Made by a program: the position numbers and the translations under genes. Shown piece after piece: positions 28,916-50,902 of a DNA stretch of 64,000 nt. The DNA comes from a virus (Duplodnaviria > Heunggongvirae > Uroviricota > Caudoviricetes): the IMG/VR virus record IMGVR_UViG_3300045988_147305; one strand, given 5' to 3'. Every line of letters starts with the position of its first letter. Positions within the stretch are counted from its first letter, which is position 1. The notes beneath the pieces are model-generated. The model did no database searches. It was not told where the DNA came from and saw only the letters and a list, made by a program, of their open reading frames with translations.

Positions 28916-30109
28916 GTGACCTGGGACGATCACAAGAAGAATTTTGCTCGCCTGGCGCGAGATGGTGGTTACACCATCGCACAATATGCCGCCGAGTTTA
29001 ATCTCAACCCAAACACCGCACGTCGTTATCTCCGTGCATTCAAAGAAGACACCGGAACAGCGGACAGCCGTAAGCCAAATAAGCCTGTCAGAAAACCACT
29101 AAAAAGCATGATCATTGATCACGATAATGATCAACGTGCAGGTGATCACGTTGTGGCTGAAATGGTTGAAAAACAAAGAGTTAATGCTGTTGTCAGTGCC
29201 GCAGTCGAGAACGCGAAGCGCCAGAATAAGCGCATAAATGATCGTTCTGATGATCATGACGTGATCACCCGCGCCCACCGGACCTTACGTGATCGCCTGG
29301 AACGCGACACCCTGGATGATGATGGTGAACGCTTTGAATTCGAAGCTGGCGATTACCTGATAGATAACGTTGAAGCGCGGAAGGCCGCGCGCGCTATGTT
29401 GCGTCGGTCCGGGGCTGATGTTCTGGAAACCACTCTTCTGGAAAAGTCTCTTTCTCATCTCCTTATGCTGGAGAACGCCAGGGATACGTGTATTCGCCTG
29501 GTGCAGGAAATGCGCGATCAGCAAAAAGACGATGATGAAGGTACTCCGCCTGAATACCGTATCGCGAGCATGCTAAACAGCTGTTCCGCGCAGATAAGCA
29601 GTCTGATCAACACCATTTACAGCATCCGGAATAACTATCGAAAAGAAAGCCGGGAGGCGGAAAAGCACGCTTTGTCTATGGGGCAAGCTGGCATTGTTAA
29701 GCTGGCATACGAACGAAAGCGTGAAAACAACTGGTCAGTGCTGGAGGCAGCTGAATTCATCGAGGCGCATGGAGGGAAAGTACCGCCCCTGATGCTGGAG
29801 CAAATCAAAGCCGATCTGCGTGCTCCTAAGACCAATACCGATGATGAGGAAAGGCAAACAGCCGTCGGTGGCCCTTCTCTTGAAGATCTGGACAAAGTTG
29901 CGCGAGAACGGGCCGCCAACCGCCGCGCCGATGCCGCATTGTGGATTGAGCAGCGTAGGGAAGAAATCGCCGATATCGTTGATACAGGCGGTTATGGAGA
30001 TGTTGATACTGAAGGTGTATCAAACGACCCATGGCTGGAACAAGACCTGGACGAAGACGAGGAGGAAGACGAAGAAGTTACCCGCAAGCTATACGGGGAT
30101 GATGATTAA
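28916..30109 (+). CDS. pacA: terminase small (pac-recognition) subunit PacA
   Basis: 397 aa; contains the pac hexamer cluster; acidic C-terminus; GTG start. Confidence 0.75.
29109..29295 (+). other. pac packaging site: two clusters of TGATCA/G hexamers (4 at 29109-29148; 4 at 29239-29295), each containing a Dam GATC
   Basis: Hexamers counted directly in the sequence; matches the recalled P1 pac architecture. Confidence 0.75.
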
Positions 30110-31593
30110 TGGCCAGAAGTTGCGTAACGGATCCACGTTGGCGCGAGCTGGTGGCGCTATATCGTTATGACTGGATTGCGGCCGCTGATGTTTTGTTCGG
30201 CAAAACACCTACCTGGCAGCAGGATCTGATTATTGAGTCTGTGCAGGAACAGGGTAGCAAGACATCTGTTTCGTCTGGTCACGGTACCGGGAAATCAGAC
30301 ATGACTTCTATCATGATCATGTTGTTCATAATCATGTATCCCGGTGCCCGCGCCATTATCGTTGCGAACAAAATTCAGCAGGTAATGACCGGTATATTCA
30401 AGTACATCAAGATAAACTGGGCTACTGCCACCAGCCGTTTCCCATGGCTTGCTGATTATTTTGTTCTGACAGAAACCGCTTTCTATGAGGTTACTGGTAA
30501 AGGTGTATGGACTGTAGTACCGAAGGGCTTTCGTCTGGGAAGTGAAGAAGCTCTCGCCGGTGAACACGCAGATCATCTTCTGTATATTATCGATGAAGCC
30601 TCCGGTGTCAGTGATAGAGCTTTCGGTATCATCACCGGTGCTCTTACCGGACAGGATAACCGCATCTTATTACTGTCACAGCCTACACGCCCAAGCGGCT
30701 ATTTCTACGATACTCATCATAAACTGGCCAAGCGTCCTGGTAACCCTGATGGCGTTTATACGGCGATCACGCTTAACAGTGAGGAATCACCGCTGGTAAC
30801 GCCAGCATTTATCAAAATGAAGCTGGCGGAGTACGGCGGGCGTGATAACCCTATGTACATGATTAAGGTACGCGGACTATTCCCTAAATCACAGGATGGC
30901 TTCCTTCTTGGACGTGATGAGGTTGAACGTGCGACGCGGCGGAAAGTCAAGATTGCCAAAGGATGGGGCTGGCTTGCATGTGTGGACGTTGCTGGTGGTA
31001 CGGGACGGGATAAGTCCGTTATCAATATCATGATGGTGTCCGGCCAGCGAAATAAACGCCGTGTAATCAACTATCGAATGCTGGAATACACAGACGTTAC
31101 AGAAACGCAGCTTGCCGCCAAAATTTTCGCAGAATGTAATCCTGAGCGATTCCCAAATATCACCATAGCGATAGACGGCGATGGCCTGGGTAAAGCAACG
31201 GCGGATCTGATGTACGAGTATTATGGTATTACCGTACAGCGTATACGCTGGGGTAAAAAGATGCATAGCCGTGAAGATAAGAGCCTGTACTTTGATAAAC
31301 GTGCTTATGCCAACGTTCAAGCCGCAGAGGCCGTAAAATCTGGTCGTATGAGACTGGATAAGGGTAATGAAACTATTGAGGAAGCGTCGAAAATCCCTGT
31401 AGGGATTAACTCCGCAGGTCAATGGAAGGTGATGAGTAAGGAGGATATGAAGAAAAAACTCAACCTGCACTCACCAGACCATTGGGATACATATTGTTTC
31501 GCTATGCTGGCGGATTATGTTCCCCAGGATGAAGTGCTTAGCATCGAAGACGAAGCGCAGGTTGATGAAGCCTTGGCATGGCTTAATGAATAA
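30109..31593 (+). CDS. pacB: terminase large subunit PacB
   Basis: 494 aa; Walker A SGHGTGKS, Walker [11 protein letters not shown]-terminal nuclease-like region. Confidence 0.8.
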
Positions 31594-47959: not shown

Positions 47960-47976
47960 ATTGCTCTAATTAATTT
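47960..47976 (+). promoter_or_regulatory. C1 operator upstream of ssb (ATTGCTCTAATTAATTT)
   Basis: 16/17 match to consensus. Confidence 0.65.
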
Positions 47977-47995: not shown

Positions 47996-48484
47996 GTGGC
48001 ACAACGCGGTGTAAACAAAGTCATCCTGATTGGTACCCTGGGGCAAGACCCGGAGATCAGGTATATACCAAATGGCGGCGCGGTCGGAAGACTCAGCATC
48101 GCAACGAATGAATCATGGCGCGACAAGCAAACGGGCCAACAGAAAGAGCAAACAGAATGGCATAAAGTCGTTTTGTTCGGAAAACTTGCTGAAATTGCGA
48201 GTGAGTATTTACGAAAAGGTTCTCAGGTCTACATCGAAGGGAAACTTAAAACCCGTAAGTGGACAGATGACGCCGGTGTAGAACGTTACACGACGGAAAT
48301 TATCGTCAGCCAGGGCGGCACCATGCAAATGATCGGCGCTCGCCGCGACGATTCACAGTCCTCAAATGGCTGGGGGCAGTCAAACCAACCTCAAAACCAC
48401 CAGCAATACAGCGGTGGTGGCAAACCTCAGAGCAGCGCCAATAACGAACCTCCAATGGACTTTGAAGACGATATTCCGTTTTAG
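47996..48484 (+). CDS. ssb: single-stranded DNA-binding protein
   Basis: OB-fold N-terminus, Gly/Gln-rich linker, acidic tail DFEDDIPF. Confidence 0.92.
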
Positions 48485-48566: not shown

Positions 48567-49475
48567 TTGGCAATGGAACGCGTTTTTAACGAACAGAACA
48601 CCCCGAGATATTGCTTTCGCTGGTGGGAAAACATTCCTGACCCACCTGAAGGCGCAATACATCAGTTTTTAAGCAGAGAAAAGACTATGGCAGCACAAAA
48701 TACTAAAACAATTCAATACCGCCTGCGTAATGGCCAGAGTGTCGAAGTGACCATCAATAATGATGGTGTACCTGGCGAAAAGGTTTCTATCTCCGATCTG
48801 GCTATCGAAAAAACCATCATGTGCCACCTTGGCTTTACTGAAGAAGTGAGCAAAAAGCATGGTGTAGCAATCTGGAGCGCAATGGATACTGGTATGCGCA
48901 GATTCATTACTGCTCGTACTCCAGGGATGACCATGATGGACCTCATGCAGATTGCGCCGCTGTTTGAATGTGAGCCTTTAGATGTATTCAGCAATCCAGC
49001 TATCTGCCAGCAGCTATATGGTGAGATGAAACTCGCGGTTACCCCCATTGTGCTGCATGAAGGATCGCTTGCTGGCGTGTGGAAAGTGGAGCGTATTTCA
49101 AGCTACATGCCTTTCCATGTCAACGGCGTAATCACTGGTGAAAATCAACCTGTTTCCGTTATAAAGTCAGACCTCAAGCGCGCAATTCTTGAAGCAAGTT
49201 GTCGAGTTGTCGGCCTGGGCAAACAGTCTTATGTTTCCTTCCCGGCTGGCCCTGAAGGCCCGGCAGAAATTCTGATTATGGATGCCGATCTGCTATGGCA
49301 AATACAGTTTCTGATTGGCAAAAGCATCATCCGCGCTGAAGAACTCGATCAGTACATTACCTGCACGATGACGGATGAAGTCAAAAGTGTGGCTATAGCC
49401 AATGCCCGGAACCTATGTCGTGCTGCATTAACAGAACTGCAAGAAAACACCACGGAAGAGGTGGAAAGTGATTAA
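48567..49475 (+). CDS. hypothetical protein (P1 isaA position), 302 aa; true start may be ATG ~48687
   Basis: Synteny only. Confidence 0.45.
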   Translation: MAMERVFNEQNTPRYCFRWWENIPDPPEGAIHQFLSREKTMAAQNTKTIQYRLRNGQSVEVTINNDGVPGEKVSISDLAIEKTIMCHLGFTEEVSKKHGVAIWSAMDTGMRRFITARTPGMTMMDLMQIAPLFECEPLDVFSNPAICQQLYGEMKLAVTPIVLHEGSLAGVWKVERISSYMPFHVNGVITGENQPVSVIKSDLKRAILEASCRVVGLGKQSYVSFPAGPEGPAEILIMDADLLWQIQFLIGKSIIRAEELDQYITCTMTDEVKSVAIANARNLCRAALTELQENTTEEVESD

Positions 49476-50562
49476 TCGTATACAGAATGAATCTGCCTGG
49501 TTAGCACTGATAGAACGGTATAAAGACAATTGGGAACTGGCAGCAAAAGAGTTGCTTGATATTGAGTTAACACCTCATCAAGCAAAAATTATTAACGCGA
49601 TAAAGAACACCGGAGCCAAAGTCACTGCCACCACACCACATGGTATTGGGGAAACCTCTATTGTGGCAGTGATTAGCATCCTGCAAACAATACTGTATTC
49701 GTGTTCCCGTACAGTGGTTGTTTCTCCTGCGATTAACGATAGTCGAAAAACAATAATTGACTATATGTTCCGTTATTGGGAGCGAGTTACCCAAAAACAC
49801 CCTTTTCTTGGCAATTATTTCAGAATACACCCTGACAAAGGGTTGGTGCATATCAGTGAAACATGGGGATGCGTCTATATAACCTATTGTCTGAATAACG
49901 AAGAGTCTCTGGCTGGTTTTACTGGACCGCACGATCTTTTCATCGTTATTAACTCGGCGGAAATCAGCGATCGCGCTCATGCAGTGATAACTGGCAATTT
50001 AACCAATTATGACTCGCGCCTGCTGTTGCTGTCGAAACCATCGGAACGCGAGAAAGGGTACTTTTATGATTCGCATCACCGGTTGGCCCATAGTAAAAAC
50101 AATCCTGCTGGTTTTTTCACGGCGATAACTCTAAACACAGAGGATTCACCTCTCGTTTCTGAAGCATATCTTGAATTCAAAGCCAAAGAGTTTGGTGGGC
50201 GCAATAGCGATGAATATCGCCGATTGATCTTGGGGAAATTCCCCGGGATTCGGGAGTTGATGGAAAAGTCATCTGTTCCCCGTAATATGCACTTCACAAT
50301 GACTGACGGTAGTAAATGGGTAGTGCCTACGATCGTGATCGCCAAACACCATGCGAAACATCACGCTCAAAAACACAACTCCAGCACATTAGACTGGCTG
50401 AAGGCCTATACAATACCGTTATTCTCGGCAAACCATAACGCTATAACTGAATGGGCTAAACAAATCCCCTGGCAGGATGTGGCTGAAGAGGCATTTGTCG
50501 AAAAACCACCAAGAGATTTGCACGAGCACTGTTGGCTGACATCAGAAAAAAGCTTCTCGTGA
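49468..50562 (+). CDS. paralog of the PacB terminase ATPase domain with degenerate Walker A/B, 364 aa
   Basis: Aligns by eye to PacB residues ~10-260 ([36 protein letters not shown]); Walker A GTGKS becomes GIGET, Walker B IIDEAS becomes VINSAE; no nuclease domain. Confidence 0.6.
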   Translation: MINRIQNESAWLALIERYKDNWELAAKELLDIELTPHQAKIINAIKNTGAKVTATTPHGIGETSIVAVISILQTILYSCSRTVVVSPAINDSRKTIIDYMFRYWERVTQKHPFLGNYFRIHPDKGLVHISETWGCVYITYCLNNEESLAGFTGPHDLFIVINSAEISDRAHAVITGNLTNYDSRLLLLSKPSEREKGYFYDSHHRLAHSKNNPAGFFTAITLNTEDSPLVSEAYLEFKAKEFGGRNSDEYRRLILGKFPGIRELMEKSSVPRNMHFTMTDGSKWVVPTIVIAKHHAKHHAQKHNSSTLDWLKAYTIPLFSANHNAITEWAKQIPWQDVAEEAFVEKPPRDLHEHCWLTSEKSFS

Positions 50563-50593
50563 GGTAAAAATCCCGCCGATTGGCGGGATTTCT

Positions 50594-50902
50594 TCAATAT
50601 ACGATCTGGTCTACATGATCACCAAAATCATCGTCGTCGTCCTCATCGCCACCATCTACTGCTGGCCAATCAACAAACCAGCCAGCGTAAAGATGCAGCG
50701 TTCGGAGAACATCACTTGCGGGAGCATCAAGGGTGTTAACGAATCCCATATAGCTATTGGGATTTGCCCCAGCTATGGCTTCAGCGATCATGTCCTCGGT
50801 AATGTCACCGGAGATAATGCTTAAACGCCCGGAAACTTCTTCATTATCATCAAATTCGATAATGGCATCTCCACCTAATGGCGCTGCGATTTTAATCTGC
50901 AT
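50594..50902 (-). CDS. acidic small protein, 102 aa
   Basis: Last ORF of the dar operon; poly-Asp tract. Confidence 0.4.
   Translation of the reverse strand: MQIKIAAPLGGDAIIEFDDNEEVSGRLSIISGDITEDMIAEAIAGANPNSYMGFVNTLDAPASDVLRTLHLYAGWFVDWPAVDGGDEDDDDDFGDHVDQIVY

What the first reader, a model, noticed from the sequence alone, without database searches (positions are those of the whole stretch)
49468..50562. Catalytically degenerate paralog of the PacB terminase ATPase domain in the isa/dar region
This 364-aa protein aligns colinearly with the N-terminal ~260 residues of PacB from the same window, but the Walker A lysine is replaced (GTGKS to GIGET) and the Walker B acidic pair is lost (IIDEAS to VINSAE). 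The C-terminal nuclease domain is absent and replaced by an unrelated His/Lys-rich tail. A full-length ORF with exactly the catalytic residues removed suggests a non-enzymatic role, such as a packaging regulator, a decoy, or interference with another element's terminase. It is translationally coupled to the upstream isaA-like gene.
Basis: seen in the sequence. Interest (0 to 1): 0.6.

Follow-up and report, generated by a model that had tools for sequence, protein, structure and literature searches.

The report
Dead terminase-ATPase paralog fused to phage domain
A P1-like phage-plasmid carries, besides its working DNA-packaging enzyme PacB, a conserved second copy of PacB's motor domain that has lost every ATP-handling residue and its nuclease half and has gained a small, widespread phage domain of unknown function; it almost certainly acts by binding something rather than by catalysis, and what it binds is unknown.

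Summary
ORF 49468-50562 (364 aa) aligns with the N-terminal 266 residues of the window's PacB at 35% identity (E 9e-55). Walker A is GIGET instead of GTGKS, and Walker B is VINSAE instead of IIDEAS. The predicted fold matches large-terminase ATPase domains. The degenerate motifs are not an artefact: six orthologs keep them, and dN/dS is 0.1-0.36.

New findings:
- The ORF belongs to a family of PacB-derived proteins without a nuclease domain that have lost both Walker motifs. I found every one whose context I examined in a P1-like element that also has a normal pacB.
- The "His/Lys-rich tail" is a folded domain. It belongs to a large family (at least 1327 clusters) of about 100-aa acidic proteins from the early regions of phages. 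This family has no Pfam entry and no structural relative.
- An isaA homolog directly precedes the gene in distant lineages too, so the two form a mobile pair.
- The gene fills a sharply bounded cargo slot that is occupied in 119 of 489 related plasmids.
- It lies in the C1-repressed ssb operon, so it is probably expressed early.

The function is untested. My best guess is a non-catalytic mimic of PacB's ATPase domain that competes for a PacB partner. It could instead be a decoy for host terminase sensors.

The parts
47960..47976 (+). C1 repressor operator (Op21/Ossb-like) upstream of ssb. It puts the ssb-isaA-ORF364 transcription unit under lysogenic repression.
   Evidence: One mismatch to ATTGCTCTAATAAATTT. 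The window has 14 such sites against 0.2 expected. The position matches the Ossb/P2ssb annotation of reference P1.
47996..48484 (+). ssb, the first gene of the presumed operon
   Evidence: ORF. Annotated as single-stranded DNA-binding protein in matching records.
48687..49475 (+). isaA-like gene (262 aa from the annotated ATG; the longest ORF starts at 48567). It is the conserved upstream partner of the dead paralog.
   Evidence: PHROG 2326, E 5e-149, unknown function. PGAP start taken. An isaA homolog also directly precedes the tailed paralog in L042, L044 and L089.
49458..49463 (+). Shine-Dalgarno sequence GAGGTG, 4 nt upstream of the GTG start
   Evidence: Read from the sequence. The empty-site allele has GAAGTG and no GTG start.
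49468..50562 (+). ORF364: PacB-derived pseudo-ATPase with a C-terminal phage domain
   Evidence: Intact in 119 PLSDB plasmids.
49468..50253 (+). N-terminal domain (aa 1-262) with the large-terminase ATPase fold
   Evidence: 35% identity to PacB 11-274. AlphaFold2 pLDDT 87, pTM 0.80. Foldseek: Sf6 gp2 at 1.4e-7, P74-26 TerL ATPase domain TM 0.63-0.65.
49633..49656 (+). Degenerate Walker A (aa 56-63, TPHGIGET, against SGHGTGKS in PacB). The P-loop lysine is replaced by glutamate.
   Evidence: Identical in six orthologs.
49936..49962 (+). Degenerate Walker B and catalytic pair (aa 157-165, LFIVINSAE, against LYIIDEASG in PacB)
   Evidence: VINSAE or VINAAE in all orthologs.
50269..50559 (+). C-terminal domain (aa 268-364). 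A divergent, charge-neutral member of a large family of roughly 100-aa acidic early-phage proteins.
50571..50590 (.). Hairpin ATCCCGCC-GATT-GGCGGGAT between the convergent ORF364 and hxr. It is the right edge of the cargo slot and a likely bidirectional terminator.
   Evidence: It is conserved at the empty site and at the HipA-cargo site.
50594..50902 (-). hxr, the conserved right flank
30109..31593 (+). pacB, the catalytically intact large terminase of the same element (the parent family)
   Evidence: GHGTGKS and IIDEAS are present. Annotated as pacB in P1 records.

Best explanation
Shown: ORF364 is a functional, non-catalytic derivative of the P1-type large terminase PacB. It keeps the ATPase fold and the conserved motifs of the C-terminal part of that domain, which I take to be the lid region (GYFYDSHH, SPLV, YGGR). 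It has lost the nuclease domain and essentially every residue that binds or hydrolyses ATP. It has gained a roughly 95-aa domain borrowed from a family of small early-phage proteins. It is under purifying selection. It forms a mobile pair with isaA.

Inferred from context: it sits behind a C1 operator with no terminator before its own, so it is probably made early after induction or infection, before the late genes pacA and pacB.

Inferred mechanism: it works as a molecular mimic of PacB's N-terminal domain. It occupies a partner that normally binds that domain, and its extra C-terminal domain adds a second contact. The most likely partner is the small subunit PacA or the PacA-pac DNA complex. 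The effect would be to hold back or redirect pac recognition and cleavage in its own replication cycle, or in that of a co-resident P1-type element. It would be an accessory modulator, not part of the essential packaging machine.
For: - Homology and fold.
- Loss of all catalytic positions. Walker A K and S, Walker B D and E, the EH after LAG, Q and T of the SQPT motif, R189 and K93 are 87-100% conserved in 15 live PacB-type terminases. Fold and lid-region motifs stay conserved in both sets.
- All double-motif losers among the 150 best cluster representatives lack the nuclease domain.
- Purifying selection: dN/dS is 0.1-0.36 overall and 0.04-0.19 in the tail, and the motifs are identical in six orthologs. 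Full-length orthologs exist at 49-53% identity.
- Every dead paralog whose context I could read lies in a P1-like element that also has a real pacA-pacB. These are L042, L044 and L089 within about 5 kb, L088 with L091, L099 with L073, and L005.
- Early-operon context.
- Dispensable: reference P1 lacks it, and only 119 of 489 related plasmids carry it.
Against: - There is no experimental or interaction evidence of any kind. I could not model complexes.
- Dead paralogs are no more similar to their own element's PacB than to foreign PacBs, so nothing points to co-evolution with the cognate terminase.
- PacA is very divergent between lineages (about 20% identity), while the dead paralog keeps the same conserved motifs. 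That fits a PacA-specific interaction poorly.
- Early expression, patchy distribution and a cargo-slot location are more typical of counter-defence or competition genes than of packaging regulators.
- The partner domain's relatives sit near replication and recombination genes, not packaging genes.
Confidence: 0.35

Rival explanations
1. Counter-defence decoy. Host sensors such as Avs1-3 and Upx recognise the ATPase domain of large terminases. An early-made terminase look-alike that cannot bind ATP could occupy those sensors without letting them assemble into the active oligomer, so the real PacB made later would be shielded. The added C-terminal domain could block sensor oligomerisation.
For: - Avs2 needs only the terminase ATPase domain. 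It contacts the terminase-bound ATP through a bridging ATP. A T4 terminase-ATPase paralog (vs.8, with intact Walker motifs) fits the same pocket and triggers it. The authors suggest such paralogs may be anti-defence proteins (PMC13601566).
- ORF364 lacks the ATP-binding residues.
- It is in an early, C1-repressed operon.
- It occupies a cargo slot with patchy occupancy, next to the Dar anti-restriction genes.
- Standalone relatives of its tail are small, very acidic early proteins in nin or early-left regions, a profile common among anti-defence proteins.
Against: - dN/dS is well below 1 and there is no sign of diversifying selection.
- A look-alike could just as well trigger the sensors.
- The motifs it retains are PacB-lineage-specific rather than generic terminase features.
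- There is no hit in PADLOC.
- No interaction data exist, and no known anti-Avs protein is a terminase mimic.
Confidence: 0.2
2. Repurposed scaffold unrelated to packaging. The dead ATPase fold serves as a binding platform in early DNA metabolism (replication, recombination or host takeover), together with IsaA and through the borrowed C-terminal domain.
For: - It is co-transcribed with ssb.
- The pairing with isaA is conserved across lineages.
- Tail-domain relatives lie downstream of DnaB or Ban helicase genes in P1-like and lambdoid phages. One forms the C-terminus of a coiled-coil protein inside a recombinase/exonuclease/SSB module in Xanthomonas phages.
- The terminase ATPase fold is related to helicase folds, seen as lower-ranked Foldseek hits.
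Against: Synteny in early regions is loose, and most neighbours there have unknown function. Tailless dead paralogs sit in other contexts, between ref and mat, or near lpa. No DNA-binding or replication motif was detected.
Confidence: 0.2
3. Interference with a rival element. The protein acts as a dominant-negative subunit that enters or caps the terminase assembly of a competing P1-type phage or satellite during mixed infection.
For: It retains the lid-region motifs shared with live PacBs and has lost the catalytic residues, so a mixed ring would stall. Ring ATPases are sensitive to inactive subunits (general knowledge, not tested here). It has a patchy, cargo-like distribution.
Against: It is repressed in the lysogen, so it cannot act as prophage-encoded exclusion. 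It is as similar to its own PacB as to foreign ones, so self-poisoning would need an unexplained escape. It lacks the nuclease half.
Confidence: 0.1
4. Decaying duplicate: a pseudogene-like remnant of pacB with no function.
For: Loss of catalytic residues and of half the protein.
Against: The reading frame is intact in 119 plasmids. dN/dS is 0.1-0.36. Full-length orthologs at about 50% identity keep the same architecture. The family has 90% bootstrap support as one clade and an invariant derived arginine. The structure prediction is confident.
Confidence: 0.02

Closest known systems
PacB, large terminase subunit of phage P1 (same window, 30109-31593)
   Same: Same ATPase fold and clear homology: 35% identity over 266 aa. 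Shared lineage-specific motifs: QQ upstream of the P-loop, EExLAG, GYFYDSHH, SPLV, YGGR.
   Different: No Walker A lysine or serine. No Walker B Asp-Glu. No SQPT/R motif. No nuclease domain. It sits in the early ssb operon instead of next to pacA. It has an extra C-terminal domain.
T4 vs.8, a terminase-ATPase-like paralog reported to trigger EcAvs2 (PMC13601566)
   Same: A phage-encoded extra copy of a large-terminase ATPase domain without the nuclease domain. Its function is unknown, and it is restricted to one phage lineage.
   Different: vs.8 is reported to keep its Walker A and B motifs, and ORF364 has lost both. I made no sequence comparison. ORF364 also carries an added domain.
PHROG 5902 / PHROG 20197 (unknown function)
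   Same: ORF364 matches PHROG 5902 end to end at E 1.6e-186, and the tailless relatives match its first 260 positions.
   Different: These families carry no annotation. Their terminase origin and degenerate motifs are not recorded in the family descriptions available here.
PHROG 17928 C-terminal region and the roughly 100-aa standalone early-phage proteins (no Pfam family)
   Same: The ORF364 tail shares the invariant core M-D-S-W-P...T-PLF...W-A...W...W.
   Different: The standalone proteins are very acidic (median pI 4.28). The fused tail is neutral, and its first helix is His-rich (HHAKHHAQKH), replacing the family's R..YY.
Satellite- and island-encoded packaging modulators (SaPI Ppi, PICI Rpp and TerS homologs). 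Recalled from the literature, not tested here.
   Same: Accessory proteins that act on the terminase by binding rather than by catalysis.
   Different: Those act on, or imitate, the small subunit and are encoded by satellites. ORF364 imitates the large subunit and is encoded by the phage itself.

Membership tests
Large terminase subunit (TerL/PacB), as a working enzyme | ASCE ATPase fold of the TerL type | tested here: met
   AlphaFold2 pLDDT 87, pTM 0.80. The top 26 Foldseek PDB hits are all TerL. PHROG 2 at E 3.6e-9.
Large terminase subunit (TerL/PacB), as a working enzyme | Walker A P-loop with Lys-Ser/Thr | tested here: not met
   GIGET replaces GTGKS. Identical in six orthologs.
Large terminase subunit (TerL/PacB), as a working enzyme | Walker B aspartate and the adjacent catalytic glutamate | tested here: not met
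   Ile-Asn replaces Asp-Glu.
Large terminase subunit (TerL/PacB), as a working enzyme | C-terminal RNase H-like nuclease domain | tested here: not met
   No alignment beyond residue 272. hhalign of the tail family against PacB C-terminal domains gives probability 0.7%.
Large terminase subunit (TerL/PacB), as a working enzyme | Encoded next to the small subunit in the late packaging module | tested here: not met
   It lies about 18 kb from pacA-pacB, in the C1-controlled ssb-isaA unit.
PacB-derived dead-ATPase family (PHROG 5902) | Full-length profile match | tested here: met
   E 1.6e-186, residues 1-364 on profile positions 1-359.
PacB-derived dead-ATPase family (PHROG 5902) | Both Walker motifs degenerate, no nuclease domain, derived invariant Arg251 | tested here: met
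   The clade has 90% NJ bootstrap support. Long-branch attraction is not excluded, because pairwise identities to live PacBs are as high as those among dead subgroups.
Roughly 100-aa early-phage protein family (C-terminal region of PHROG 17928) | Conserved core W/P/F pattern and predicted beta-hairpin plus helical fold | tested here: met
   HMM E 1e-44. PHROG 17928 at E 1.4e-13. Alignments. Model pLDDT 88.
P1 IsaB | Sequence similarity to the P1 isaB product | tested here: not met
   Best BLASTP E 0.056 over 57 aa.
T4 vs.8-type terminase ATPase paralogs | Sequence homology to vs.8 and intact Walker motifs | not tested
   The vs.8 sequence was not retrieved. The paper reports intact motifs, and ORF364 lacks them.
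Anti-defence proteins against terminase sensors | Binding to, or inhibition of, Avs- or Upx-type sensors | not testable with these tools
   No complex modelling or assay is available. PADLOC, a library of defence systems and not of anti-defence proteins, gave no hit.

The most novel reading that the evidence does not exclude
ORF364 and its relatives are phage-made terminase decoys. They would be ATP-blind copies of the large-terminase ATPase domain, produced early to saturate or jam host pattern-recognition sensors (Avs1-3, Upx) that detect that domain. The loss of every nucleotide-binding residue would then be the adaptation that separates binding from sensor activation. This would be the first counter-defence that works by mimicking the conserved viral epitope itself.
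Probability: 0.15. Interest if true: 0.85.

Novelty: new variant of a known kind. Interest (0 to 1): 0.55.

Why it matters
Large terminases are among the most conserved and best-studied phage enzymes, and they are now known to be a main target of bacterial innate immune sensors. This finding is a conserved, selected family of terminase-derived pseudoenzymes that sits beside the working enzyme in a well-known model phage group (P1-like phage-plasmids, which also spread resistance genes). It points to an unstudied layer of control over packaging, or of evasion of terminase sensing. It gives a directly testable handle: one non-essential gene in a genetically tractable phage. The same gene also draws attention to a very large uncharacterised family of about 100-aa acidic early-phage proteins.

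Tried and rejected
- Pfam, NCBIfam and PADLOC gave no hits for ORF364, IsaA or the tail family.
- Sequence searches of the PDB gave nothing for ORF364, IsaA or a terminase profile. The tail profile gave only a weak hit to 3ic3 (E 0.33), echoed by a weak DUF5076 hit on relative P0004 (E 0.092). I did not regard either as significant.
- I tested whether the tail descends from the PacB nuclease domain and rejected the idea.
- I tested whether IsaA is a degenerate PacA, which would have made isaA-ORF364 a duplicated pacA-pacB pair. No similarity was found by BLASTP. A profile or structure comparison was not possible.
- I tested for concerted evolution with the cognate PacB and found none.
- The protein look-up for P0002 and the locus searches with P0007 and with a tailless-clade alignment returned nothing usable.
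- Literature searches found no paper on this gene. Comparative papers only list isaA-IS1-isaB as a variable region. One mentions '2 orfs including putative phosphohydrolase' at this place in pJIE250-3, which may or may not be the same gene.
Full report
**Where the finding lies.** The window is a P1-like phage-plasmid. The 2-kb stretch around the finding is 97-99.8% identical to Escherichia phage vB_EcoM-813R1 and to two records named P1. The gene order is darB, prt, pro, lyz, ssb, isaA, ORF364, hxr, ddrB, ddrA, darA, which follows P1. Reference P1 has IS1 and the unrelated isaB where this window has ORF364.

**The observation.** ORF 49468-50562 is 364 aa with a GTG start. BLASTP against the window's PacB (30109-31593) gives 35% identity over 266 colinear residues, E 9e-55. 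PacB GHGTGKS pairs with PHGIGET, and PacB IIDEAS pairs with VINSAE. Nothing in ORF364 aligns with the PacB nuclease half. PHROGs place the protein in family 5902 (unknown function, E 1.6e-186) and, more weakly, in family 2, large terminase (E 3.6e-9). An AlphaFold2 model built on 110 sequences has pLDDT 87 and pTM 0.80. Its 26 best Foldseek matches in the PDB are all large terminases: Sf6 gp2, the P74-26 ATPase domain (TM 0.63-0.65), T4 gp17 and D6E.

**Not an artefact or a decaying copy.** The gene is intact in 119 PLSDB plasmids from Escherichia, Salmonella, Klebsiella and Shigella. Six orthologs that differ by up to 5% in DNA all keep GIGET and VINSAE or VINAAE. Pairwise dN/dS is 0.1-0.36 for the whole gene and 0.04-0.19 for the C-terminal part. 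Relatives with the same architecture exist at 49-53% identity (P0002 and P0004; loci L042-L052, L089 and L095).

**A family of dead PacB derivatives.**
- An exhaustive HMMER search of 1.84 billion representatives gave 746 hits. Among the 150 best, 119 have both Walker motifs.
- About a dozen lack both, and every one of those also lacks the nuclease domain. They are 230-268 aa long, or 364-444 aa with an unrelated C-terminus.
These are Walker A K and S, Walker B D and E, EH after LAG, Q and T of SQPT, R189 and K93.
- The fold-defining and lid-region motifs stay conserved in both sets: the Q upstream of the P-loop, G-x-G, EExLAG, GYFY..H, SPLV, YGG, G-x-F. One arginine (R251) is invariant only in the dead set.
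- The 11 dead sequences form one clade in 90% of NJ bootstraps. Their pairwise identities to live PacBs (32-45%) are as high as those among dead subgroups (26-45%). Long-branch attraction, and hence repeated origin, cannot be excluded.
- Live N-domains are 62-88% identical across the same lineages, so the dead copies evolve faster.

**Always beside a working terminase.** Every dead paralog whose surroundings I could read is in a P1-like element that also has pacA and pacB. These are L042, L044 and L089 (pair about 5 kb downstream of pacAB, c1 and cre), L088 with L091 on one contig, L099 with L073 on one contig (between ref and mat), L005 (near lpa and pacA), and L007 (downstream of prt and pro).

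**The tail is a domain.**
- Residues 268-364 match the C-terminal 100 positions of PHROG 17928.
- Aligned with relatives, they share an invariant core of Trp, Pro and Phe residues.
- A profile search found at least 1327 clusters, nearly all standalone proteins of 96-105 aa with no Pfam domain and no name.
- These occur downstream of the Ban/DnaB helicase gene in P1-like elements (Cronobacter phage JK004 and a Salmonella plasmid). They also occur in the nin region of lambdoid prophages and in the early-left region of a Pragia prophage. In Xanthomonas phages the domain forms the C-terminus of a 471-aa coiled-coil protein inside a recombinase, exonuclease and SSB module.
- One metagenomic protein (P0025) has the domain in front of a dead PacB domain, so the two have been joined more than once.
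- The window has no standalone copy.
- Standalone members are very acidic (median pI 4.28, net charge about -12). The fused versions are neutral, and their first helix carries HHAKHHAQKH in place of the family's R..YY.

**Genomic setting.**
- The start codon overlaps the isaA stop by 8 nt and follows a GAGGTG ribosome-binding site.
- Comparison with plasmids that lack the gene shows a sharply bounded slot. It runs from the isaA stop codon to a conserved hairpin at 50571-50590.
- Of 489 plasmids matching the isaA-hxr stretch, 119 carry ORF364. In the plasmids I inspected, the stretch between ssb and hxr instead held nothing extra, a HipA-family toxin gene, an unrelated minus-strand ORF, or a DUF2829 gene upstream of isaA.
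- Published comparisons list isaA-IS1-isaB as a variable region of P1-like elements but do not discuss this gene.
- A C1 operator with one mismatch lies at 47960-47976, just upstream of ssb, where P1 has the C1-controlled ssb promoter. I found no plus-strand terminator before the hairpin that follows ORF364. I infer, but have not shown, that ssb, isaA and ORF364 are transcribed together early after derepression.
- In the distant lineages L042, L044 and L089, an isaA homolog (47-48% identity) again directly precedes the tailed paralog, although the pair sits elsewhere in the genome. The two genes therefore travel together. Even so, isaA occurs without ORF364 in most E. coli elements. IsaA has no detectable similarity to PacA or to any known family.

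**What it probably does.** The loss of every ATP-handling residue, together with retention of the fold, lineage-specific surface motifs and purifying selection, points to a binding role.
- Favoured reading: a mimic of PacB's N-terminal domain that competes for a PacB partner. PacA or the PacA-pac complex is the obvious candidate. Made early, it would modulate pac recognition or cleavage. Against this, there is no sign of co-evolution with the cognate terminase. PacA is very divergent between lineages that share the paralog. The gene is dispensable.
- Main alternative: a decoy for host sensors. Avs2 needs only the terminase ATPase domain and contacts its bound ATP. A T4 ATPase-domain paralog with intact motifs (vs.8) is predicted to fit the same pocket and triggers the sensor, and the authors suggest such paralogs may be anti-defence proteins (PMC13601566). 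An ATP-blind copy made early in a cargo slot fits that picture. However, the low dN/dS and the lack of any interaction data leave it speculative.
- Third reading: a scaffold in early DNA metabolism, resting on the contexts of the tail family.
- The decaying-duplicate reading is excluded by the conservation data.

**Novelty.** The gene family exists in PHROGs without annotation, and a few records label it 'terminase large subunit' automatically. I found no paper that describes it. Extra terminase-ATPase paralogs are known (vs.8). A selected, catalytically dead, nuclease-less derivative fused to a second phage domain is a new variant of that kind. Its function is open and directly testable in a tractable phage.

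Noticed in passing
window 49476-50590; loci L018-L021, L002: The isaA-hxr interval is a sharply bounded cargo slot, running from the isaA stop codon to the hairpin at 50571-50590. Other P1-like plasmids have different contents: nothing, a HipA-family toxin (YjjJ), an unrelated 292-aa minus-strand ORF, or IS1 plus isaB. In some, a DUF2829 gene sits between ssb and isaA.
   Followed up: partly
proteins P0168-P0285; loci L003 5001-5297, L009 6001-6312, L010-L013: A very large family (at least 1327 clusters) of roughly 100-aa, strongly acidic (median pI 4.28) early-phage proteins. It has no Pfam family, no name and no structural relative. The genes are typically downstream of DnaB/Ban helicase genes or in nin regions.
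   Followed up: partly
L004 3894-5309 (Xanthomonas phage Tenjo): A 471-aa protein with a weak DUF1351 match and a long Ala/Gln/Glu/Arg-rich coiled coil, ending in the same domain as the ORF364 tail. It sits between a DUF2303 gene and a recombinase/exonuclease/SSB module. The record labels it DUF820, and the Pfam scan does not support that label.
   Followed up: partly
protein P0025 (246 aa, metagenomic): The tail-type domain lies N-terminal to a dead PacB-like domain, the reverse of the order in ORF364. This suggests the two modules have been fused independently.
   Followed up: no
L042, L044, L089 (about 9200-11080): In distant P1-like lineages the isaA homolog and the tailed dead paralog are again adjacent and overlapping, but they lie downstream of cre rather than ssb. 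This is a mobile two-gene module.
   Followed up: partly
L005 13433-14239 (Leclercia adecarboxylata plasmid CP042508.1): pacB appears truncated to 268 aa, next to a resolvase and a Tn3-family transposase. This P1-like plasmid has probably lost its packaging ability, yet it keeps a tailless dead paralog.
   Followed up: no
window, 14 sites including 1268, 17467, 33028, 47960: Fourteen matches (up to 3 mismatches) to the P1 C1 operator consensus against 0.2 expected. This maps the immunity regulon of the element.
   Followed up: no
window 50335-50370 (aa 290-301 of ORF364): The helix carrying HHAKHHAQKH puts histidines at positions i, i+1, i+4, i+5 and i+8. It is conserved in the 50%-identical relatives (HHAQHHAKKH) but absent from standalone family members. 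It may be a metal-binding or pH-sensitive face.
   Followed up: no
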